Shown: positions 12,584 through 34,154 of the stretch, one piece after another | How positions within the stretch are numbered: the first letter of the stretch is position 1 | How the letters are laid out: the number at the start of each line of letters is the position of its first letter | Assembly: GCF_000372725.1 (NCBI RefSeq) | Contig: NW_005201732.1 | Location: forward strand, 310,001-374,000 | Direction: 5' to 3' | From: Emiliania huxleyi CCMP1516 | Lineage: Eukaryota | DNA: 64,000 nucleotides | Translations under genes and position numbers: made by a program | Notes under the pieces: model-generated | What the model saw: only the letters and a program-made list of their open reading frames with translations | Told to the model about the DNA's origin: nothing | Databases searched by the model: none

Positions 12584-13156
12584 AGAGAGTTGGGCTTACC
12601 AAGATCGGCCGAACGCGATCAAATCGTCCAGGACGAAACGAGGCGGCACAGCGCCTTGCCTTGCAGTGTGATGTACTGGGTACCGTTTGCGAGGGAAGAA
12701 ATCATGGGGCCGCGAGTCCCATGCCAGGCAGGTTTGCCGTTCTACCCCCACCGGCCTTTGAAAAGAACAACGCGACGCGTGTTGGCCGGACCGCATCCGC
12801 GCCCGCCTTTCTGGCCTCTCGCCGTGGGCGCGCGCGGCGATCCAAGTTGCGAGGTTCCCAACACCCGCGAACTGGGGGAAAAAGTCAAGACCAGCTTTAA
12901 ATGATACGCACAGGCGCCACAGCGCACCGCGCTGCAGGAAAAGACAAATCGCACATGAGATTGGGCTTAGCACATGGAGATTTTCCGGAGAGGGGTGTGG
13001 GTGGACTATAGGCCTCTCGTCTTGCGGACAGTGCGCCGCGAGCAGAGAGCAGGGGCGAGAGCGGGGCGTCGCAAGGGGGGCGCGAGGAGCTAAGTCGATC
13101 CAGACGAGCACGACCGCTCACACGAGAGGTTGTGGAGCGCGAGGCGCTGCGCCGCC

Positions 13157-16100
13157 TCAGAGCTCGCGCATCGCGGCGCCGCCGTGGCCGTCGAAGGCGA
13201 GCTCGTGCGTGTGGTGGCGCGCGAGCTCAGGGCGGTGCGCCACGACGAGGGTGGCCGCCTCGCTCGCGGCGAGGAAGGCGAAGAAGCGCTCCTCGAAGCC
13301 GGCCTCGCAGGCGGAGGTTGGCTCGTCGGCGACGATCAGCGCCGGAGGGGAGGAGGAGCGGCACGCGAGGTAGAGGCGCGCGGCGGCGAGGCGCTGCCGC
13401 TCGCCACCGGAGAGGGAGCCGCCTGCGGGCGAGGCCGCGCCGCCGCGGTCAGCGGCGCAAGCGCGACGAAGCGAAGCGGGGAGGGGGCGGGAGCGAGTCA
13501 GCGGCGCAAGCGTGGCGAGGCTAGTGAGGGAGGGGGGGGGGGACGCCGAGGTCTGGCCGCGGCTCGTCGAGCTCGGCGCCGCCTGCGGCGAGCCTCTCGA
13601 GCCCGGCCCACGCCAGAGCCTACAGGACGGCGCCTTGAGCGCTCCTCGACCGCCCCGACAAACTTCCCAAGCGGCGGACCCAATCTGAGCCTCGAGAAAC
13701 ATGGCGTCAGCGGCGGGCGCGGCGTCGGCCAGCGGCGTGGGGTACAAGAGCTGCGCCTGCGCTCAAAGCGAAGCGAGGAGCTAAGGCGGGGGCTGGCGGG
13801 GGAGTCTCGTCCCCGCGGCGCGAGCGAGGGTGCCCGCAGACAGCCGGTCGGGAGGATGTACGGCCGCTGCGGCAGCGCGACGATCCGGTCGGACGGCGGC
13901 GTCGACACCTCGCCCGCGCGCGCCTACACGCGGCGAGGCGCCTCTGGCCCGTCACTCGGCCGGGGCGCGGCGGCGGTCCGCTCCGCGCGCGCAGCCCGCC
14001 GGCCACACGCCGAGCGCAACCCGCAGCAGCGACGACTTTCCGCAACCGTTTGGCCCCGAGACGAAGACGTGGGCTCCGCGCGGGACGGAGGCGGAGAGGG
14101 GGCCGGCGAGGGGGGGCTCGGAGAGCGCTGGCGGGGCGATGACGACGGACCGGAGCTCGAGCGCCATCCCTGCCGCCGAGCAGCGCCGCCGTGACGAGGG
14201 AGAGAGGGTGGCGCGTGTGCGCGTCGCGGGGTGAGTGTGCTGTCCCGGCTGGCTGCGCGTGGCTGGGGGGGGCGGGGTTGCACCAGAGCCCGCCGTGCGA
14301 GCCTGGACGAGGGCTCGCTCGAGCAGCGGCGGGGCCGCACCCTCGCCGCCCTTCTTGGCGGGTCCGTTGCCGTTTGCGGCTTCGGCGTGCGCCGGCTCGA
14401 GCGAGGTGAGGAGGGCGAGGACGCGGCGGGCGTGCGCCGAGGCGGTGGCTGCAGTCTTGTGCGAGAGGACGAGGTCCTGCTCACAGCCGGAGGTGTGGAG
14501 AGAGGCGTTGTGCTTTTCTGTGAAGAGAGGCGCGGGAGGGGGCGGGGTGAGGGGCGAGGGAGGGACAGGGCGGTGTTCCTTGCAAGCCATCCCAACGTGG
14601 ACGAGGAGGTGGAGCGAGGTGAGAAAGTACTCGGTCGGGTCGGCTCCGCCCGGGGCGGCGCGCACGACGGCGGGCAGCATCGCGGTGAAGGCGGCGAGGA
14701 TGCCTACGCGCCACGCGCCTCACACGCCCTCACCGCGGGGCTGCCTGCCCGCCTGAGCGGTGGAAGGCGGCGAGGGCTGTGCCGAGGTGCCGCAACACGT
14801 ACCCGTCCAGCGAGTCCGAGCCTGGGAGGGGAGGCACCGGTGGGAAGCGAGCGCGCGCGAGAGCAGGGGGAGGGCGCAAGGCTTGCCACCGAAGCGCTGC
14901 AGCTGCAGCTGCGAGGTGCGCCCGGCGGCGGCGGCGAGCGAAGCGTGCAGCGCCTCCGCCTCGGCTGCGCCGCCCCCCATGAGTGCAACCTCCTCGGCGT
15001 ACTCGACGAGGTGCGAGTGCAGCGCGAGCAGCTCCGCCTGCAGACGCTCGAGGCCAGGGCTCGAGGACGCCTCCCGCAGCGGCGCTTTCGGCGGGGGGGG
15101 GCGCTGCGGCGCGAGGAGAAGGCGGGTGAGGAGAAGGGGGGGGGGGGGTCGCCTCCGCGTCTGCCACGCCCGTCGTCATCGTCGCGATCGAGGGGCCGGC
15201 GAAGCGGGTCCAGCAGCCGGCGGCGAAGAAGAAGGAGTAGCAGTAGCAGAGCGGGCCGGGGCCCATCATGAGAGCCAGCTTGACCGAGAGGAGGGACACC
15301 TCGACCAGCGGCTTCGAGAGGGCCTGCGCGAGGGAGGTGCACGCAGGTCTGCTCGGAGGCCCGCGAGGAGGCGGCTGCACGCCTTGTGTCGTCGTCGTGG
15401 GTGGCACAAGCGGCTGCCCCCTCGCCACATCCCTCGCCGCCTCCCCCTCGCCGCGCCCTCCCGGACCCGCTCGCCCGGACCCAGTCGCCGCCGCGCGGGA
15501 GAGGGGGGGGCAAGTGGAGGGCGGGGCGGGGCGGGGCACTGCAGAGGGCGGGACAGTGCGAGCTTGCGCAGGGCAGGGCTTGCGCAGGGCAGGGCGGGGC
15601 AAGCGCAGCCGCGCACCTCGTACAGCTCGACGGCGGAAGAGCAAAACTCCGCCGGGTCTGTCAAGCACACGCCGACTGCGCCGCCGCGCGACGTGTCGGC
15701 GCTGCCCTCCGCCGCCGCCGCGAGCGCGCCGGGCAGCCTGCGCGTCGCCGTCCCCTCCGGAGCGGGCATGAGCGGCGCGTCGGCGCCCGCCGCGCCCAGC
15801 TTGTCCACGACTGTCTGCAGCAGCCGCTCGCGCAGGCAGAGCGCCGCACGCTCGCGCGAGAACTTTTGGAGGGCGGTGGTGGCGGCCGCCGGCAGCGCCC
15901 AGAGCGCGTAGGTCAGCTGCCGGCTGAAGAGCTCCTCCCACTCCCCCTTTGCGAGCAACGAGCCGAGCGAGCCGATCTCGGAAGACACCTTGACCGACAC
16001 TGCGAGCCGCACGCCCAGGCCAAGCGAGAAGACGCCGAGCCACGCGGCCGAACGGCTCCAATACGACGGCATGGCGAGACGCAGCACGGTGCGGAGCGGG

Positions 16101-16333
16101 CCGGGTGCCTTTGGAGGCCTGGACGGCGGCGGCGGCGCGACGAGTGTGCCGTCCTTCTCCGCCGGAGGCTTGAGTGCACGGCGCGCCTTGAGCTTGAGCC
16201 GGAGGAAGACGGCGCGACCGGTCACGCCGACAAAGGTGACGGCCCACCCGGCGAGGAGCACACGGCCGCGTGGCTCGTTCACCCAGGCGCGAAGGAGCCG
16301 GCTGAGGACCGAGCCCTCGACTTGGTGCACCAT
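13157..16333 (-). CDS. ABC half transporter, ABCD (peroxisomal fatty acyl-CoA importer) family, multi-exon
   Basis: Walker A GPNGCGKSSLLR, LPQRPY, signature LSGGERQRL, Walker B IVADEPTSA, VAHR; EAA-like HSHLVEYAEEVALMGG; KPLVEV TM region. Confidence 0.88.
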
Positions 16334-16360
16334 CGCCGACCCACGAAATTTCCCAAAATG

Positions 16361-16771
16361 CAGGTGTGTATTCTTTTTGCTTGATGCGGCCAGCATGCTG
16401 AAATTCTGGAAAAACCTGACCGGCCCCTGCGGTGCCCCTACCTACCTACCTACCTACCTACCCTACTTATGGGAAACTAAAAAAGAAATCACGGGCCTGG
16501 TGAAGGTGGGGTACTATACCAACTACAGTGATGGCTGGCGGTACTCTCCTGCAATCACAGTCCTTCCTGTGACGTGGCAGGCCACTATCAAGCCCTACAA
16601 GCACCAGATCACCCACTTGGGGAGGGTTGACGTCGTGATTTTTGCCGAAAATTTCTTTTTTTGCTGTGAAAATTCCGGCGTGAAGAGAGGGAAAAACCCG
16701 AAGGGAGCGCCCAGACCTACCCTACCTACCCCGGCATGCTGGCCGCCCCAAGCAAAAAGAATACACACCTG
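16361..16771. mobile_element. MITE, 411 bp, ~38-bp TIRs beginning CAGG
   Basis: caggtgtgtattctttttgcttgatgcggccagcatgc at 16361; reverse complement with 2 mismatches ends at 16771; flanks caaaatg / aaaaatg (imperfect TSD). Confidence 0.8.
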
Positions 16772-17157: not shown

Positions 17158-18352
17158 TGTCAGGAGACAGAACACGGAGGAGCTGTATAGGTCACTAGAG
17201 ACCCACACCATCGCTACATCACCACAGCCACCAAGTCGGATACAAGTCGATGACAATGTGCGCGGCAGGACAAACCAAACATGAGACGGTTACACAAGGA
17301 CGGTCAGGCTACGGTCAGGAAGTAGGTTTGAGTTCACACTCTCCAACACTCCCCCATTGTCTCCGCAGTCTTCATGAATGAGGATGCGGCAGACAACAAC
17401 AGCAGAGTGTGAATGTGTCTGAGCGTAGGTATGCCATCCAGACGGCAGAGACGCTCGTAGAGGCGCATTGGACTTCTTGCCAGAGGCGTTGGACAGCGGG
17501 ACGGGCTAGCGCGAGGAGGCAGGACGAGGAAGAGTCAGACAGCAATGAGGTAGAGTGGCATTGCCACGTCGAACAGATGCCCAACACTCCCCCACGACGT
17601 GATAATCGCCACACAAGGCAGAGAGGGCGTGTCGATCGTCGCGTGTTCATCGCGTACAGCTCCGGTCGTGTCGAGCGGCGACGTCGGAAGTAGCGGCGGC
17701 GAAAGGCAGGGTCCACATTCGGTGCGAGATCTTTGCGGTAGCTGCCGTTGCAGCAGCCCGAGAGCTGGTAGCGGAGGCAGCAGCTGCGATGGTGGTCCGT
17801 AGGCGAGGAGAACGGACCGGTAAGGAGAAGCAAGAGGGGATACACGTGTCCACACAGCCGCAGTGCTGGCGTAGATGCGCTCTGTCGCAGAAGATCCGCA
17901 AGCACCCAAGTTGATGTTGCGGTTGTACTCATTCTGCTCAGCCTCCGAGCCGAGCAGTTGGCGGCCGCTGTGCCACCGTGCGCCGAGCCTCTGTGCCCAG
18001 CCAATCACCACGGCTCGCGCAGTTGCCCATGGTGCCAGCCAACGTATCGAGCGTAAGCCGGAAATGCTGTGCGGCAACACATCTCGCTTGTGTGCCGCAC
18101 CAGCTCTCATGTCGGCCTCAGTGCCGCACTGCTCACTCCGTGCTCTCACCGGTCGGTACCATGTCAGGAGACGGAACACGGAGGAGCTGTATAGGTCACT
18201 AGAGACCCACACCATCGCTACATCACCACAGCCACCAAGTCGGATACAAGTCGATGACAATGTGCGCGGCAGGACAAACCAAACATGAGACGGTTACACA
18301 AGGACGGTCAGGCTACGGTCAGGAAGTAGGTTTGAGTTCACACTCTCCAACA
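17158..18352 (-). mobile_element. Complete non-autonomous LTR retroelement (TRIM-like), 1195 bp
   Basis: 191-bp TG...CA LTRs at 17158-17348 and 18162-18352 with one difference seen; 5-bp TSD GGCTT; minus-strand PBS-like TGGTACCGACC next to the 5' LTR; PPT GGGGGAG next to the 3' LTR. Confidence 0.95.
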
Positions 18353-18502: not shown

Positions 18503-20875
18503 ATGGTTGACATGCTCCGCGCGGACCTCGAGGCCAGCTCGTCGCCGACCATGCGAGCAAGCAGCGACGCAAAAGGCGACGAGCCCAATGCTCGTTCCGT
18601 CGCTGCTACAAGGCCATCGCTGTGTCGTTTTCCACGCCTCGCCCCGTGCTGCGGCCTCCTCGTCGTCATCGGAGCTCTGCTCGTCGGCCTCTTCGTGGGC
18701 TGGCGCCTTCGCCCCAAGGATGGCATCGTGTCCGACCTGCTCTGCCCGAACGTGTTTGACGGACCGCCTCTCTGCCACGAGCTGCTGGACTTGCCAGGTT
18801 TCCTCGCGCCCGGCTCTCTGTTCCACGAGCAGTGTCAGGAGAAGTGCAACGAGAAAGACTCGAACGTTAGCAAGGTCTGCAGGGTCGTCAAGGCCAAGCC
18901 AGGCCTGATCCCGTGCACCACCGTTCTCGATGTGAAGGAGACTGCAAAGGCGCTGGCGAGGCAGATTGGGATGGAGTACCGGAAAGGGCAGAGCCTGCGA
19001 GAAGTAATCGAGTCGGTGGTGACGGAGGACCTGAACGGCGCGGCGCGCTCATTTTTCTGGTACTTGCGCGAGACACGCCTCGATGCGCTCTTCCTCAACT
19101 ACCTGGAAAACCCAGACGGCCCTGGTCAGCTCACCCCGACCCTGGCTCCCTACTTGCTCTCTCCCTTCGGCACGGGTGCGGCGTCTCTCCTGTCGGAATT
19201 GGGGCGGTCGATCCTGTCGATCCCCGCCATCGCCCACATTCTCTACAACTCGCACCCGAGCGCGTCCATCGCGACGGCGGAGCTTCTCAACCTCCTCGGG
19301 CGTACCGGAATCCGGGTGCCTTCGCTCGTCCCTGGGGCGCTCGGCCTCGGCCTCGCTTCCGCTCAACCTCACTCCCTTGGCTTGGGGTGGCTCGCGTCCA
19401 GCCTCCTTGGCCGCGACACGCAGCTTGTGGCGCCAGACGCTCTGGGCAAGCTGATCGACCCGCAGGTCCATGCCGGCCAAGACCAGTCGCTCGCCGTCAA
19501 GCTGACGCCAACGCCCGACGATTGGAGCGAATACGTCGAGAAGTGGTACAACGCGGGCCAGGGCATCTCCCTCCGGCGCAACGACCCGAACTACCCTCTC
19601 CTCGAACGGCTGGCTAACTACTTCCAGAACTCATGGATGAGCATGCTCCTGTTCAACATCAACGGAGATGGGGTGTACCGCTTCAGCTGCGACTACGACC
19701 GCCTCTCGAAGCTCGGCGAGGCCGCGCCCGCGCTGATGAAACACCTCGTCACCCCGGATCCCACGACGAACGAGACGCTGCTTCGCGGCGGCTCTGCCTA
19801 CGGCGAGCTCATCTTTGAGATGGTGGACCACGATGGACGGCGTGTGCTCAAGCCGAGCGCGAATCAGACGCTGCTGCAGCCGCGCCAGCTTTCAGCGTTG
19901 CTGCAGTGCGCGCACAACGGTGCCCAGATCTACCACGTCGGCCTCCACGTTGCGTCGCAGTCGATGGCGTACGCGAGCAAGGATCTCGCCACTGGCCACC
20001 AAGATCTCTCCCAGGATCCCGTCTTCCGCATGCTCAACCCTGGCCGCGATGCGACGTCGAATATCAACGCGGCGGCCGACGCATCACTGGTGAACGTGCC
20101 CGGCTTCGGGTCGCGCCGCCTGAACGCAGCCGACATGAAGGCCCTCAAGGTCCACGGCGTCGCGCCCCTCCTCGCCGACCCGTGCAATGCGTCTCGCTAC
20201 AACCCCCGCCACGACCAGCACGTTACCGAGGCCACGCTCGGCCAGCTGAATTTGTTCAACCCTACCGGCCGCCGCGCTCTCGGCATCATCTGCGCCGACG
20301 TGAGCGAGCCGGAGCAGGCCATCCAGCTGCCGGAGCGGGCGTGGGGCCAATACGTCCGGCGGCTGCGCGACGACCTCCACATCGCCTCCCAGGTCGAGCC
20401 CGTCTACATCGAGCGATACGAGCCGCCCCTCTCTGCCATGGCGATCGGGATAGAGCACACGATGACCTTCTCCATCAACTTCCTTTGGGCCGAGCTCGAG
20501 CGGCAGCCGCCCGCCGAGGCCCTGCCGTTCGCCGACATGCCCAATCCTCGCGCGTTCGGCGCCGCCTTCTTCCTCGACGTTGTCGCCTCCGCAGTCATCA
20601 CCGTCTTCTCGCACAAGACTTTGCTGGAGTGCTCCGAGCCGATCCCGGAACACACGCAGACATCCATCACGAACGAGCAGCTGATTGTGGCCGACTTCCC
20701 GCGCTCCATCGAGCTCGGCTACGACGTCAAGCTGCGCAAGATGGCGCACAGCCTGCGTGCGCTGTGGGCGGAGACGAGCCTCTTCATGGAGGCGCACCAC
20801 CCGGGCTCCCCGGTGATGAATGCCTCGTTTGTCTACGAGGTTCAGCGGTGCGTCTCCTCCTCCACCTGGATCTGA
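18503..20875 (+). CDS. Divergent lipoxygenase-like protein with N-terminal TM anchor, intronless (~790 aa)
   Basis: Long clean ORF. Motifs in LOX order: ISLRR, CDYDRL, DGRRVLKP, QIYHVGLH, DPVFRMLNPG...NINAAADASLV, GIEHTM, C-terminal SSSTWI. Confidence 0.65.
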   Translation: MVDMLRADLEASSSPTMRASSDAKGDEPNARSVAATRPSLCRFPRLAPCCGLLVVIGALLVGLFVGWRLRPKDGIVSDLLCPNVFDGPPLCHELLDLPGFLAPGSLFHEQCQEKCNEKDSNVSKVCRVVKAKPGLIPCTTVLDVKETAKALARQIGMEYRKGQSLREVIESVVTEDLNGAARSFFWYLRETRLDALFLNYLENPDGPGQLTPTLAPYLLSPFGTGAASLLSELGRSILSIPAIAHILYNSHPSASIATAELLNLLGRTGIRVPSLVPGALGLGLASAQPHSLGLGWLASSLLGRDTQLVAPDALGKLIDPQVHAGQDQSLAVKLTPTPDDWSEYVEKWYNAGQGISLRRNDPNYPLLERLANYFQNSWMSMLLFNINGDGVYRFSCDYDRLSKLGEAAPALMKHLVTPDPTTNETLLRGGSAYGELIFEMVDHDGRRVLKPSANQTLLQPRQLSALLQCAHNGAQIYHVGLHVASQSMAYASKDLATGHQDLSQDPVFRMLNPGRDATSNINAAADASLVNVPGFGSRRLNAADMKALKVHGVAPLLADPCNASRYNPRHDQHVTEATLGQLNLFNPTGRRALGIICADVSEPEQAIQLPERAWGQYVRRLRDDLHIASQVEPVYIERYEPPLSAMAIGIEHTMTFSINFLWAELERQPPAEALPFADMPNPRAFGAAFFLDVVASAVITVFSHKTLLECSEPIPEHTQTSITNEQLIVADFPRSIELGYDVKLRKMAHSLRALWAETSLFMEAHHPGSPVMNASFVYEVQRCVSSSTWI

Positions 20876-21031: not shown

Positions 21032-21373
21032 ACGAGGTATTTTCTTCTCAATAAAACAAGGTCTGTGAACGTGTATGCAAGGTCTTGTTTCTTATCTGCC
21101 CGCGGGCCGACCCTCACAGCTAACAGCTCACCTATCTGTGAATCTCATAGACCAGCGCAAAGCGCCACAGGAGGTATTTTCTTCTCAATAACAAGGTCTG
21201 TGGAATACGAGGTATTTTCTTCTCAATAACAAGGCGGTGAGGTATTTTCTTCTCAATAACAAGGCTGTGAAGCCATCCCCAGGGCCTCCAGGGCTCGCAC
21301 CTCAACCTCTCACAGACCAGCGCATAGCGCCATAGGACGTATTTTCATTTTCTTCTCATAACAAGGCTGTGAA
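21032..21373 (+). repeat. Cluster of about 5 copies of a ~30-bp motif inside a dispersed upstream repeat
   Basis: gaggtattttcttctcaataacaagg(t)ctgtgaa near 21034, 21173, 21209, 21239 and 21338; related copy inverted at 39327-39440. Confidence 0.85.
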
Positions 21374-21450
21374 TCACCCTACTGTGAAATGAAAGCGGCA
21401 TACGGCCGTCGCCGCCCGTCGCCGCCCGTCGCCTCGAAGGGTCGAAGCCT

Positions 21451-22833
21451 GTGGTTCTGCGCCGCAGGGGGTGGCTGCGCCGCGAGCCTCAACTTCCGTC
21501 AGGGATGTGGCTCGCGCCAAACGACACACGGCTCCTCTACTCTGACTACCTCCACCTGCACAAGGACTCGCGCCGCGCCGTGTTTGACCGCTGCTTTGAC
21601 CCGCAATGGCCCTGCCGCTGGCTCCCAGAGACGGAGTACGCGCGGAACGGTTGGCAGCGCACCAACCTCTCGGGTCCGTTTGCCGAGATGCAGACGCCCG
21701 GCGCCACGGTGTCGTTCGAAACCGACGCCACCGCGGTCACGGCGCACCTCGAGTACTCGGGCGACTGCCGGCCAGGGTGCCCGTCCACACAGTGGGCCGG
21801 GCAGGAGGAGGACGCGAGGCGATGCTACGACCCACTGCGCAAAGGCAACGCGCAGCCGTCGGACGTCTGCGAGGCAAGCTGCGTACCGATCCTCTTCGTG
21901 GACGGTGTGCGTCGGCAGCTGCCACCAACCGAGGTTGGCGCGCCACGGCTGTACATCGGAGCCGTGGCGTTCGATCTCGCCGTCGATGAGGCTGCGCCGA
22001 TGGGAATGCGCCGTTTCGAGCTCTCCATGCCGTGGGGCGCTGCCACGCACCTCGCCGGCTTGAGGCTTGCCCGCCCGCCCACCTCTGACGGCATTACTGT
22101 CCAACGGCCGCCTCCTCGCGGCCGGTTCACGTACATCGCGTACGGCGACTCCATCACGCACGGGTACTGCGCCGAGACGCCGTACCCGGGCTTGATTGGC
22201 AGGCTCAACAACTGGACCGCAATCAATCTCGGCTGGGGAGGCATCCGGGTCACGCCCCGGCACGGACCAGCGCTGGGCGCTATCCCCGCCGACCTCATCT
22301 CGATGCTCATTGGCACTAACGACTACGGCGGAGGAAACTGCGAAGTTGCGGCTGGCCTATCTGAGACGCTCAATGGCATCCGGGAGGCTCAGCCGGACGT
22401 CCCGCTCGTCGTCATCACGATGATTGTGAGGCGCGAAGCAGGAGACCCGCACGGCGACTGCAGCAGCGACGGCGGCGGTGGCGGCGTCACGCTCGAGCAG
22501 CTTCGTGAGCAGCTCCGGAGGGAGGTGAACAGGCGCATCCACGCCGGCGACCGGAACCTCCACCTAGTCGAGGGTGGTGGGCTGCTCTCGCTCGGCGACC
22601 TCGGCGATGGCCTTCATCCGGCCGGCACAGACGCGATGGAGAAGCTCGCGAGAGGCATCAATGCCCACTTTCACCGTCTGGGCCTTGCGCGCACTTTTCA
22701 CTGCTACGCAGAGCGCTACCCGCACCTGCTCGAGGAGTACTGCGGCGGTACCGCCACCGAGTGCGACTGGGTGGCCCTGCAGCGCCACTGGGACCAGCAT
22801 GGCCGCGTGGGGGGGCTGCGTGCTGATTGCGAC

Positions 22834-22864
<31 letters not shown>

Positions 22865-23166
22865 ACAGCTCGCTCGGCGCGATGGCTGCGAGGCACAACC
22901 ACAGGGCCCGCGGTCACGCGGCGACGAACGCTGCGACGACTGCCGCAATCTGGTGCTCCGCCGTGGTTGGGGCGGGCGCGCTCGCCGTGGCGTTCGGAAT
23001 GCTCCTCCGGGCCAAGGGGCACACCCGCTTCGCGAAAGTCCTCGGCTCCGAGGGCGAGTACGAGCTGGAGCCCGGGCCTGCCGACAGGTCTCGGGCGCCA
23101 AAACGCCGCGGACGCAGGCAGTCACAAGACAGGGAGCTGGCTCCAGCAGAGGAGAGTCCAAGGTGA
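21451..23166 (+). CDS. SGNH/GDSL hydrolase with C-terminal TM segment
   Basis: Blocks YGDSITHG, NLGWGG, IGTND, DGLHP; poly-Pro linker then hydrophobic AIWCSAVVGAGALAVAFGMLL; start uncertain. Confidence 0.88.
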
Positions 23167-23773: not shown

Positions 23774-25188
23774 TTAGTAGACTTGGACGGTCTCTGGGTC
23801 GGCGCCGCCAGCCTGGCGCCGAGGCGCCTTTGCGGGTGCGACGACTCCGCCGGAGCCCACGACTCGGCTCCTGGCGGGCCCGGCCGCGGCCCGGCCGGCG
23901 ACCACGCGGTCCCGCGCCTCGACGAACGCGTTCCGCTGGGCGAGCGCCGCCTGCGCCACCTTGCGCACGCACACGAGCTGCACGATGAAGTTGTTTCCGA
24001 AGTGGAGCAGCACCGGCAGCGCCAGGCCGCCGCCCGTGCCGAGGTAGGCGGCGCCGAAGACGAGGCCGCCGAGGAAGGTCCACGCGGCGTAGATGGAGCG
24101 CTGCACGGCAGAGCGCTCGTTCCAGATGTGCATCGCCCCGAAGACCGCCGAGCTCAGCGCGGCGGCGAGCGGCGCCGGCAGCCGCGCCTTTGAGACGAGC
24201 CCGTGGAGCAGCAGCGCGCGGAAGAGCACCTGGGAGGCGGCGGCAGGGGACAATGCAAGGAGCGTGGCAGGGAGACGCCGCCCTCTCCCACCCGCCAGGT
24301 CGGCCTCATCTCGTCCTCCTCATCTCGGCCACATCTCCCTCCTCATCTCGGCCACATCTCGGCCACATCTCCTGAAATCTCGAATCTCGCCTCCTCGCCC
24401 ATAGAGCTGCCGGCGGCGAGCTGGAGGATGGGGAGCAGGATGGCGCCGCGCGTGGCGGGGCGCCGCAGCGCCGCCCACAGCGAGAGTCGGGGAGGCTCGT
24501 CGCCTGAGGCGCTGCCGCCGCCCGCCGCCGCCTCGGCAGCTTCTGATGCGGCGGAGTCCACCCAGACGGCAACACCGTCGCGGCAAGTGACCGCGGCGAG
24601 CTTCTGGCCAAAGTCGGACGGGCAGCCGGCGAGCTGCCGCAGGCCTTGCGTCGCCGCCTGCAGCAGCCCCAGCAACGTCGCCGTCGCCGCCGCCACCGCC
24701 ACCGTGGAGGTGAGGGGCAGCAGGCGCGCGCGGCTGGGCAGCCTCCCGAGCGGCGCAAAGCGGCAGAGGACGACGCCGAGCAGCGAGCCGGCTGCGGTCT
24801 GCATGTTGAGCTGCGACAGCAGCCGGCCGCCGAGCGCGGCGGCGAAGACGGCGTTGTCGTCGGCGAGGATGGCGTCCAGCGGCAGGTCGGACAGGAAGGT
24901 GGCGCCCGAGTGCTCGTTCAGCTCCGCGAGGACACGCTCGGCGTGGAGGACGTGCGCGTTGCGCCGCTCGAGCAGCCGCGCGCGCGCTTCGTGCAGCCGC
25001 AGCCGCAGCACGTCGTCGCTCTCCCACGGCGCGTGATCCGTCTCACGCAGTGCAAGCTCCGCCTCGAGCGAGGTGCGGTTCATCTTGTGGACGGCGCCAC
25101 CGCTCACGAGCGCGCCAAGGATGGGCTGGTCGGATCCGAGCGCAGCACGGGCGCACGCCGAGAGGACGAGGACGAGGTGAAGCCTCAT
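23774..25188 (-). CDS. CPBP/Abi (type II CAAX protease) family intramembrane metalloprotease with signal peptide
   Basis: EE|VLFR across intron ~24230-24392, SSAVFGAMH, LLHFGNN; N-terminus MRLHLVLVLSACARA. Confidence 0.85.
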
Positions 25189-32100: not shown

Positions 32101-32255
32101 GTCGTCAGTACTGCTACGCATATGTAATCGCCCAGAATGCACAGATCGGCCATGTTATGTAAATACGCGCCCGCGATCCATAGTGCGTCGGCCAGACGTC
32201 GCGTATTTCGGTGTCGTGCCCGATCGGGGTGTGCCTCTCAAGGCGCGCTACGCCC

Positions 32256-33150
32256 CACGTACTACGCACACGCATTCCGGATTCGAGTGAGAAGTGGCGG
32301 CCGACGGGGGTTACGCCTCACGCATTACGCATACGTTTTACGCATTCGCACGCCCAAGGTGTCAGAGAGGGCCTACGCACCACGTACTACGCACACGCAT
32401 TCCGGATTCGAGTGAGAAGTGGCGGCCGACGGGGGTTACGCCTCACGCATTACGCATACGTTTTACGCATTCGCACGCCCAAGGTGTCGGAGAGGGCCTC
32501 CGCACCACGTACTACGCACACGCATTCCGGATTCGAGTGAGAAGTGGCGGCCGGCGGGGGTTACGCCTCACGCATTACGCATACGTTTTACGCATTCGCA
32601 CGCCCAAGGTGTCGGAGAGGGCCTCCGCACCACGTACTACGCACACGCATTCCGGATTCGAGTGAGAAGTGGTGGCCGACGGGGGTTACGCCTCACGTAT
32701 TACGCATACGTTTTACGCATTCGCACGCCCAAGGTGTCGGAGAGGGCCTCCGCACCACGTACTACGCACACGCATTCCGGATTCGAGTGAGAAGTGGTGG
32801 CTGACGGGGGTTACGCCTCACGTATTACGCATACGTTTTACGCATTCGCACGCCCAAGGTGTCCGAGAGGGCCTCCGCACCACGTACTACGCACACGCAT
32901 TCCGGATTCGAGTGAGAAGTGGTGGCTGACGGGGGTTACGCCTCACGTATTACGCATACGTTTTACGCATTCGCACGCCCAAGGTGTCGGAGAGGGCCTC
33001 CGCACCACGTACTACGCACACGCATTCCGGATTCGAGTGAGAAGTGGCGGCCGACGGGGGTTACGCCTCACGCATTACGCATACGTATTACGCATTTGCA
33101 CGCCCAAGGTGTCGGAGAGGGCTTGCGCACCACGTATTACGCATACGTAT
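32256..33150. repeat. 125-bp tandem repeat, about 7 near-identical copies
   Basis: attcgagtgagaagtgg at 32281, 32406, 32531, 32656, 32781, 32906, 33031. Confidence 0.97.
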
Positions 33151-33164
33151 TACGCATCCCCCCC

Positions 33165-33480
33165 CCAACCCCCTTTATGTGCGCGCACTGGCGCTGCCGC
33201 TCGGGCTGCCATAAGTTGGCTGGGGTTGTATGTGCGCTGGTAACAACAGACTCGGGCATAGCCCTCGACAGCCACCCCCTAACCCCCCTCCCCCCCCCCC
33301 TTATGTGCGCGCACTGGCGCTGCCGCTCGGGCTGCCATAAGTTGGCTAGGGTTGTATGTGCGCTGGTAACAACAGACTCGGGCATAGCCCTCGACAGCCA
33401 CCCCCTAACCCCCCACCCACCCCCCTTTATGTGCGCGCACTGGCGCTGCCGCTCGGGCTGCCATAAGTTGGCGCTGCCGC
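33165..33480. repeat. 126-bp tandem repeat, about 2.4 copies
   Basis: ttatgtgcgcgcactggcgctgcc at 33175, 33301, 33427. Confidence 0.95.
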
Positions 33481-34154
33481 TAGGGCTGCTGCATAATCAT
33501 GAGCCTGTCTCCAAACACCTCTCCGACGCGCTCGACTATAGTCCAAATTGGACGGTGGACTATATGTCGATTGGCGGCCATTTGCTCAGGCGTCAAAATG
33601 CTGAGCTCGTACGCTGGCAGCTCCGCAGAGGTTGAGGACGGCGGTGGCGGCGCGGTGAGATCGCTGGTGTCCCTGCCCGCCTCCCTGCGGGCGTAGAAGA
33701 GCGCCGCCTCCTCGGCGGTGGCGAACCAGCCGAGGGTGACCTGCTTGCCGCCAATCATCACCTTCAGCTGGTACTTCTTGCTGCCTTGCTGCTTCGGGCG
33801 GCAGCAGACGCCTTTATAGCCGGTGTTGCTGCTGCTACTGGCGGTGAGGGTGAGGCCCTCCCTCTCCGCCTGCCGTATCGCCTCGGCGCCAGCGGGAGTG
33901 GGAGCGGGGCGAGGCTGCAGCAGCGTGGCGGCGTCGGCGCGGCCGTACTCTGACCGAGCGTAGGCGGTGGCCGCCTCTTCGACGGTGTCGAAGTAGCCGA
34001 GGTGGACACCCTTGCCGCCAGCATTCGCCTCCGCCTTGAACTTCTTGCTGCTGCGGCTGAAGGTCACGTTCTTGTAGCCAGTCGCACTGTCCTTGCGGAC
34101 GGCTGGGATCAGCGCGATGCGTTCTGTCGCTGCGGTCCGCGGCGGGGCCATCAT
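33480..34154 (-). CDS. Protein with two AP2-like DNA-binding domains, intronless
   Basis: TGYKNV...VHLGYFDTVEEAATAYAR and TGYKGV...VTLGWFATAEEAALFYARR. Confidence 0.85.
   Translation of the reverse strand: MMAPPRTAATERIALIPAVRKDSATGYKNVTFSRSSKKFKAEANAGGKGVHLGYFDTVEEAATAYARSEYGRADAATLLQPRPAPTPAGAEAIRQAEREGLTLTASSSSNTGYKGVCCRPKQQGSKKYQLKVMIGGKQVTLGWFATAEEAALFYARREAGRDTSDLTAPPPPSSTSAELPAYELSILTPEQMAANRHIVHRPIWTIVERVGEVFGDRLMIMQQP

What the first reader, a model, noticed from the sequence alone, without database searches (positions are those of the whole stretch)
18503..20875. Membrane-anchored, highly divergent lipoxygenase-like enzyme with Mn-LOX-type HxxxH spacing
Seen: QIYHVGLH (19925-19948), then DPVFRMLNPG...NINAAADASLV, a later His (GIEHTMTF) and a terminal Ile. 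Established: Fe-LOXs use HxxxxH followed by HPxxKLL...INxxAR, a later HxxxN and the C-terminal carboxylate; fungal Mn-LOXs use HxxxH (HVLFH). Here the usual Asn ligand position is Phe. An N-terminal TM helix plus a Cys-rich segment sits where a PLAT domain might be expected. The gene is intronless among intron-rich neighbours. Inference: a new algal LOX subfamily with unusual metal coordination.
Basis: partly seen in the sequence, partly recalled or inferred. Interest (0 to 1): 0.72.

Follow-up and report, generated by a model that had tools for sequence, protein, structure and literature searches.

The report
Hidden membrane-anchored lipoxygenase family in coccolithophores
This intact, intron-free algal gene encodes a protein that standard family searches miss but that is predicted to fold like a lipoxygenase and likely oxidises polyunsaturated fatty acids from a membrane anchor with a metal site lacking the usual fifth ligand; a transcript of this gene or of a close sister gene is switched on over 100-fold in virus-resistant Emiliania cells.

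Summary
Window 18503-20875 is one 790-aa ORF covered by RNA contigs without joints. Neither it nor 13 relatives hit Pfam Lipoxygenase. Yet the modelled catalytic domain matches only LOXs: 12 of 48,161 PDB chains score Z>=8 (10.1-12.9), all LOXs, next 5.0. Of 16 histidines in that domain, exactly three (478, 482, 652) are invariant across relatives 25-73% identical, and complete members end in W-I/V/M. The fifth-ligand site is Phe (9 of 10) or Gln, never Asn. HxxxH is real but not diagnostic of Mn: Magnaporthe MnLOX has His284/His289. An N-terminal helix, invariant cysteines and a conserved sequon suggest a secretory, membrane-anchored enzyme. In a published G. huxleyi study, a transcript whose best hit is the 68%-identical paralog EMIHUDRAFT_432118 is an unannotated core virus-resistance gene (log2FC 7.7-14 in 5 of 5 comparisons); whether it is this gene is unresolved. 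Metal, ligand geometry and activity are untested.

The parts
18503..20875 (+). Single-exon gene, 790 aa, LOX-fold protein (P0001)
   Evidence: ORF; GC3 0.84; RNA contigs without joints; 19-member cluster in public assemblies
18641..18709 (+). Predicted N-terminal transmembrane/signal-anchor helix, res 47-69
   Evidence: Hydropathy 2.57; helix 47-69 in model; similar segment in 6 of 10 relatives checked
18743..18916 (+). Cys-rich segment, res 81-138 (six Cys), in place of a PLAT beta-barrel; fold not resolved
   Evidence: Six Cys aligned in the coccolithophore paralogs; modelled helical at pLDDT mostly < 50
19484..20872 (+). LOX-like catalytic domain, about res 328-790
   Evidence: VIA-align Z 11.1-14.3, 50 of 50 rows LOX; Z 10.1-12.9 against 48,161 chains, next 5.0
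19925..19948 (+). Q-x-Y-H-x3-H: predicted metal ligands His478 and His482, likely second-shell Gln475
   Evidence: His 10 of 10 each, Gln 9 of 11; lies in the long helix at pLDDT about 70-80
20015..20092 (+). DPVFRMLNPG...INAAADASL: counterpart of soybean LOX-1 522-546; Ala525 = Ala542 (R/S switch), Leu529 = Leu546 (clamp)
   Evidence: Ungapped profile alignment to 3bnc, E 0.72; A525 and L529 each 9 of 12; Leu546 clamp from PMC12383934
20447..20479 (+). G-I-E-H-T-M-T-F: third predicted ligand His652; Thr655 (+3, always T/S/Q); Phe656 at the usual Asn site
   Evidence: His 10 of 10; +3 T8/S1/Q1; +4 F9/Q1
20819..20827 (+). Conserved N-glycosylation sequon N773-A-S
   Evidence: Equivalent N-x-S/T in 9 of 9 C-terminally complete sequences listed
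20861..20875 (+). C-terminal S-T-W-I-stop: predicted carboxylate ligand Ile790
   Evidence: I4/V3/M1 in 8 complete diverse members; last model residue aligned to the last or second-last residue of LOX chains; tail pLDDT < 50

Best explanation
A transcribed, single-exon gene encodes a member of a deeply diverged family predicted to have the lipoxygenase fold, likely anchored in a secretory membrane by an N-terminal helix and likely oxygenating polyunsaturated fatty acids at a single metal ion, most likely iron. Inferred mechanism: His478, His482, His652 and the Ile790 carboxylate bind the metal; the fifth protein ligand is lost (Phe656) and a second water would take its place, possibly held by Thr655; metal(III)-hydroxide abstracts a bis-allylic hydrogen from a substrate clamped by Leu529; O2 adds with S stereochemistry if the Ala525 rule holds. 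The disulfide-rich, glycosylated domain would face the lumen or cell surface and make oxylipins or remodel membrane lipids, with paralogs deployed in different cell states (infection, resistant or flagellated cells). Shown: ORF, transcription, conservation pattern, structural similarity of the models. Inferred: ligand geometry, metal, topology, activity, role.
For: Fold: 12 of 48,161 chains reach Z>=8, all LOXs, Z 10.1-12.9, rmsd 4.0-4.8 A over 315-364 residues, next hit 5.0; full-length model 50 of 50 rows LOX; Foldseek probability about 1.0 and TM 0.45 for LOXs against 0.10-0.13 for non-LOX rows. Independent of the models: language-model features give LOX clusters as top hit, 0.90, with 10 of 10 named hits in one family or clan; the only PDB sequence hit of the family profile is soybean LOX-1 512-556; the family HMM ranks 63 bacterial LOX ORFs above 101 neighbouring ORFs, AUC 0.76. 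Ligands: only 3 of 16 His are invariant and they are the predicted ones; C-terminus I/V/M; 3-His-1-carboxylate is the conserved first sphere, the Asn/His often second sphere (PMC13059375 passages). Substrate-positioning Leu and Ala kept. Secretory signs: invariant Cys396, 469, 597, conserved sequon, DeepLoc 'Transmembrane' for two paralog transcripts. Substrate supply: E. huxleyi has 14-23% 18:5n-3 (PMC13706080 passages).
Against: No significant sequence link: no Pfam LOX hit for P0001 or 13 relatives, none in PDB with alignment A3, hhalign probability 3.5-5.6%, P 0.007-0.012; forward beat reversed LOX in only 39 of 63; Foldseek E never below 0.001. The Atlas score sits at the level that 4-10% of shuffled proteins reach, and full-length P0003 gave no usable hit. 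Models are middling (pLDDT 57 and 67), with the ligand-bearing tail and res 658-720 under 50. The review read states all LOXs have His, Asn or Ser as fifth ligand; this family has Phe. Class II fungal LOX-fold proteins bind metal yet have nominal activity (PMC12383934 passages). Basic residues flank the helix on both sides, so topology is not settled; a second hydrophobic stretch (683-704) is unexplained.
Confidence: 0.6

Rival explanations
1. It is a manganese lipoxygenase, converging on the secreted, glycosylated fungal MnLOXs.
For: HxxxH in all family members against HxxxxH in 70 of 71 bacterial LOX references, the last one ambiguous; Gln three residues before the first His as in Magnaporthe MnLOX Gln281/His284; secretory features and no beta-barrel, as in fungal MnLOX. 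HxxxH in Gaeumannomyces MnLOX is recalled, not seen in a call.
Against: Magnaporthe MnLOX has His284/His289, so spacing does not set the metal; no structural preference for MnLOX (5fno Z 11.3, 5fx8 12.7, iron LOXs up to 12.9 and 14.3); MnLOXs keep the Asn; Mn is reported only in certain fungi.
Confidence: 0.15
2. LOX fold and metal, but different chemistry: a hydroperoxide isomerase or hydroperoxidase (eLOX3-like), or an oxidase of non-classical lipids such as sphingoid bases or alkenones.
For: Loss of the fifth ligand in 10 of 10 and about 10-14% identity to every solved LOX; E. huxleyi already has several Pfam-detectable LOXs; the paralog transcript rises together with sphingolipid hydroxylases and a desaturase in resistant cells.
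Against: Clamp Leu and switch Ala of classical dioxygenases are kept; no direct data.
Confidence: 0.17
3. A catalytically weak or dead LOX-fold surface protein that binds metal and lipid (sensor, scavenger or coat component).
For: Precedent of near-inactive class II fungal LOXs; bulky Phe at the fifth site; membrane anchor.
Against: All four first-sphere ligands, the Gln and the clamp stay conserved down to 25% identity, which fits selection on catalysis.
Confidence: 0.1
4. The LOX resemblance is a chance match of a helical model.
For: No significant sequence hit; Z near 13 can arise for helical bundles (tool note).
Against: Only LOXs score above 5.0 among 48,161 chains, over 315-364 residues ending at the C-terminus; three independent weak sequence signals point to the same family.
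Confidence: 0.05

Closest known systems
Iron lipoxygenases, catalytic domain (PF00305; human 12-LOX 3d3l, coral 8R-LOX, Cyanothece CspLOX2, soybean LOX-1)
   Same: Predicted fold, three His plus C-terminal aliphatic residue, P-x-x-x-L-x-P segment, clamp Leu and Ala switch.
   Different: 9-14% structural identity, no Pfam hit, HxxxH not HxxxxH, Phe at the Asn/His/Ser site, no PLAT barrel seen, N-terminal membrane helix, invariant Cys and sequon.
Fungal manganese lipoxygenases (Magnaporthe 5fno, Gaeumannomyces 5fx8)
   Same: Same fold at similar Z; no beta-barrel; secreted and glycosylated; Gln at -3 from the first His.
   Different: They keep Asn473-type ligand; soluble rather than anchored; Magnaporthe enzyme has HxxxxH; metal here unknown.
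Divergent bacterial PF00305 homologues with Gly at the fifth site (loci L027, L028, L029, L030, L069, L070)
   Same: Natural loss of the fifth ligand side chain, 6 of 71 references.
   Different: Small Gly rather than Phe, HxxxxH spacing, Pfam-detectable; not closer to this family by HMM; uncharacterised as far as seen.
Pfam-detectable E. huxleyi lipoxygenases (EMIHUDRAFT_452272, 432530/436360, 463448, 438543)
   Same: Same organism group; also respond to viral infection.
   Different: Carry PF00305; rise early in infection (cluster 2), whereas this family's transcripts fall in clusters 3 and 4; sequences not compared here.

Membership tests
Lipoxygenase (PF00305, EC 1.13.11.-) | Sequence match to PF00305 | tested here: not met
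   No hit at E<=1 or 10 for P0001 and 13 relatives
Lipoxygenase (PF00305, EC 1.13.11.-) | LOX catalytic-domain fold | tested here: met
   On predicted models: Z 10.1-12.9, rmsd 4.0-4.8 A, 315-364 aligned, only LOXs above 5.0
Lipoxygenase (PF00305, EC 1.13.11.-) | Three invariant His and a C-terminal Ile/Val in sequence | tested here: met
   His478/482/652 10 of 10; ends I4/V3/M1
Lipoxygenase (PF00305, EC 1.13.11.-) | Those ligands meet at one site in space | tested here: inconclusive
   Last residue aligns to the LOX C-terminus within one residue, but tail pLDDT < 50 and no coordinates to measure
Lipoxygenase (PF00305, EC 1.13.11.-) | Fifth ligand His/Asn/Ser four residues after the third His | tested here: not met
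   Phe 9 of 10, Gln 1 of 10
Lipoxygenase (PF00305, EC 1.13.11.-) | Clamp Leu and Ala/Gly stereo-switch | tested here: met
   Leu529, Ala525 by ungapped alignment to soybean LOX-1 at E 0.72; 9 of 12 each
Lipoxygenase (PF00305, EC 1.13.11.-) | Non-heme Fe or Mn and PUFA dioxygenation | not testable with these tools
   Needs protein
Iron LOX | HxxxxH spacing | tested here: not met
   HxxxH in 10 of 10; references 70 of 71 HxxxxH, one ambiguous
Plant/animal LOX | N-terminal PLAT beta-barrel | tested here: inconclusive
   No Pfam PLAT hit; res 70-327 modelled helical but at pLDDT mostly < 50
Fungal manganese LOX | Bound Mn, suprafacial and bis-allylic oxygenation | not testable with these tools
   Needs protein
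Fungal manganese LOX | Closer structural likeness to MnLOX than to FeLOX | tested here: inconclusive
   5fno Z 11.3 against 10.1-12.9 for iron LOXs; 5fx8 12.7 against 11.1-14.3
Fungal manganese LOX | Asn ligand retained | tested here: not met
   Phe656; Asn473 in Magnaporthe enzyme

The most novel reading that the evidence does not exclude
A previously unrecognised class of cell-surface, membrane-anchored lipoxygenases with a four-ligand (3-His-1-carboxylate, no Asn), possibly manganese, site, invisible to Pfam, whose paralogs are switched on in virus-resistant and flagellated Emiliania cells and oxidise membrane lipids or make oxylipins as part of antiviral resistance.
Probability: 0.2. Interest if true: 0.88.

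Novelty: new variant of a known kind. Interest (0 to 1): 0.66.

Why it matters
Algal LOX inventories are built with PF00305 (PMC5712309 passages), so this family of at least five paralog clusters is missed. It would widen the known ligand chemistry of LOXs (no fifth ligand, short His helix, membrane anchor) and give a clean natural test of what selects Fe versus Mn. It also puts a testable enzyme hypothesis on one of the 206 core virus-resistance genes of the main bloom-forming coccolithophore, a gene that study left without Pfam or structure annotation.

Tried and rejected
Pfam, PDB-sequence and profile-profile searches gave no significant LOX link; global hhalign failed. The Egh16-like (E 0.28), cysteine synthase (E 0.39) and plasmid tblastn hits (E 0.8-10) were rejected as chance. 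A second homologue search with alignment A3 found nothing new. The Atlas model of P0003 is unusable (pLDDT 0.29). No host genome is held, so paralog number and synteny were not examined. An upstream start (18254) was rejected because cluster members change frame there. L032 (HHVALH) looked like a bacterial HxxxH case but aligns as HxxxxH. The GDSL neighbour had no contig cover in 4 of 4 runs; used only as a silent control. The primary MnLOX structure papers were not held, so Gaeumannomyces spacing and soybean N694G kinetics stay unverified. Searches showed no paper describing this family as LOX; search 86 by identifier was swamped by unrelated numbers and is uninformative. bioRxiv 10.1101/2024.07.03.601694 was seen only as a search listing; its supplements are closed and may annotate the transcript. 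Earlier scan findings: none. No complex prediction was sent, as no binding is claimed.

Full report
Observation. Window 18503-20875 (+) is one 790-codon ORF with GC3 0.84. Fourteen of 17 listed runs hold over 90% of its words, 9 on record as RNA, in 6 studies. In 7 of the 8 runs laid one contig spans the ORF almost end to end with no joint, and the eighth does so with two overlapping contigs. The left neighbour, an ABC transporter, shows 9 joints in one run. The right neighbour, a GDSL hydrolase, is a single ORF with no cover in 4 of 4 runs.

Family. Searches found a small family: 4 clusters and 15 representatives at E<=0.001 among 1.84 billion. The only named members are Emiliania huxleyi hypothetical proteins EMIHUDRAFT_432118 (P0003, 68% over res 300-790) and the fragment EMIHUDRAFT_432810, so the host is likely this coccolithophore or a close relative (inferred). 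Catalytic-domain identities among eight complete members run from 25 to 73%. I aligned 13 diverse sequences out of the 112 then held, dropping near-duplicates, P0056 (insertions), P0057 and P0054 (frameshifted ends) and the tail of P0062. Of 16 histidines in res 321-790 only 478, 482 and 652 are invariant (10 of 10 each). Complete members end W-I (4), W-V (3) or W-M (1). After His652, +3 is T/S/Q in 10 of 10 and +4 is Phe in 9 and Gln in 1. Gln475 is 9 of 11; Cys396, 469 and 597 are 10 of 10. A sequon near the C-terminus is in 9 of 9 complete sequences listed; an N-terminal hydrophobic segment in 6 of 10.

Fold. Sequence methods do not reach significance: no Pfam LOX hit, a single PDB hit of the 5-sequence profile to soybean LOX-1 512-556 at E 0.72, none with 16 sequences, and hhalign P 0.007-0.012 with probability under 6%. 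The alignment pairs HVG-LH with HLCRTH across a one-residue gap. Language-model features put LOX clusters first at 0.90, a borderline score. Two AlphaFold2 models were made: full length, pLDDT 56.7, and res 320-790, pLDDT 66.7, pTM 0.73. Foldseek lists LOXs first for both, at E 0.001-0.1. VIA-align gives 50 of 50 LOX rows at Z 11.1-14.3. Against 48,161 representative chains, the 12 with Z>=8 are all LOXs (10.1-12.9, rmsd 4.0-4.8 A, 315-364 residues) and the next is 5.0. The last residue aligns to the last or second-last residue of most LOX chains, but the tail has pLDDT under 50 and distances could not be measured.

Ligands and metal. A review (PMC13059375, passages) gives three His, a His/Asn/Ser and the terminal carboxylate as common to all LOXs, and calls the 3-His-1-carboxylate set the first sphere. 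This family keeps the four and lacks the fifth. In 71 bacterial reference LOXs gathered here spacing is HxxxxH in 70, one ambiguous; the fifth site is Asn 63, Gly 6, His 2, so ligand loss has precedent but Phe does not in this set. HxxxH is therefore unusual but does not prove Mn: the Magnaporthe MnLOX residues listed in PMC10997076 (passages) are Gln281, His284, His289, Asn473, Val605 (that these are its ligands is recalled). The Gln at -3 is a Mn-LOX-like trait; structure shows no preference. The alignment maps Leu529 on the clamp Leu546 (PMC12383934, passages) and Ala525 on Ala542 (its role as the R/S switch is recalled; rule), predicting S products if active. The same paper shows that LOX-fold proteins can bind metal and be almost inactive.

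Biology. In PMC12489294 (outline, sections 12, 13, 17, 19, 23 and supplement rows read) transcript 373c_629, best hit EMIHUDRAFT_432118, is up log2 7.5, 7.3 and 6.8 in recovered cultures and 7.7, 9.8, 10.7, 14.0 and 13.7 in 5 of 5 resistant-versus-sensitive comparisons, making it one of 206 core resistance genes; it has no Pfam and no AlphaFold description. Transcript cogent14793_i1, best hit 432810, is up log2 3.2-3.8 at three of four infection times, and mixed across resistant strains (-9.0 to +3.0). The window protein's own cluster shows no NCBI entry among 15 of 19 members listed, so 373c_629 could be this gene or its paralog. Two of the five comparisons are flagellated cells, so the signal may mark a life-cycle state rather than a defence function. 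E. huxleyi also has Pfam-type LOXs that rise early in infection. Other papers seen as passages only: PMC11126961 (plus one supplement row), PMC8511707, PMC3669278, PMC5437038, PMC5712309, PMC13706080, PMC11407398.

Mechanism and verdict. It most likely works like a lipoxygenase: one metal, probably iron, on three His, the C-terminal carboxylate and two waters, abstracting a bis-allylic hydrogen from PUFAs at the luminal or outer face of a membrane (confidence 0.6; fold about 0.95). It is not filed as a PF00305 member, since the profile and fifth-ligand tests fail. Rivals are a Mn enzyme (0.15), altered lipid chemistry (0.17), a near-dead binder (0.1) and a chance fold match (0.05); these overlap a little with the main reading. 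Searches showed no description of the family as LOX. New variant of a known kind; interest 0.66.

Noticed in passing
window 17158-18352: 204-nt direct repeat, 97% identical, 1004 nt apart, with TG...CA ends, a GGCTT duplication on both sides and a purine tract and TGG primer-site-like stretch on the minus strand: looks like a small non-autonomous LTR retroelement (TRIM-like) ending about 150 nt before the LOX-like start. Present in RNA contigs with many differences, so probably multi-copy.
   Followed up: partly
window 21499-23166 (+): Single-ORF SGNH/GDSL hydrolase (Pfam E 2e-14) with a Pro-rich linker and a C-terminal hydrophobic helix, directly downstream of the LOX-like gene; no RNA contig cover in 4 of 4 runs. 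A lipase next to a LOX is suggestive, but nothing links them.
   Followed up: partly
window 13130-16396 (-): ABC transporter with ABC_membrane_2 (peroxisomal fatty-acid importer type) and 9 spliced joints.
   Followed up: partly
window 21034-21380: Four to five degenerate copies of a 30-nt unit in the 3' region of the gene (family D17); contigs show rearrangements here.
   Followed up: no
window 32123-33535: Tandem arrays with periods of 125 and 126 nt, 91-99% identical core copies (D1 and D10).
   Followed up: no
L027, L028, L029, L030, L069, L070: Divergent bacterial PF00305 homologues with Gly at the fifth-ligand site and unusual C-terminal residues (Thr, Tyr, Asn).
   Followed up: partly
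window 23777-24253 (-): Rce1-like CAAX protease domain (E 2e-12).
   Followed up: no
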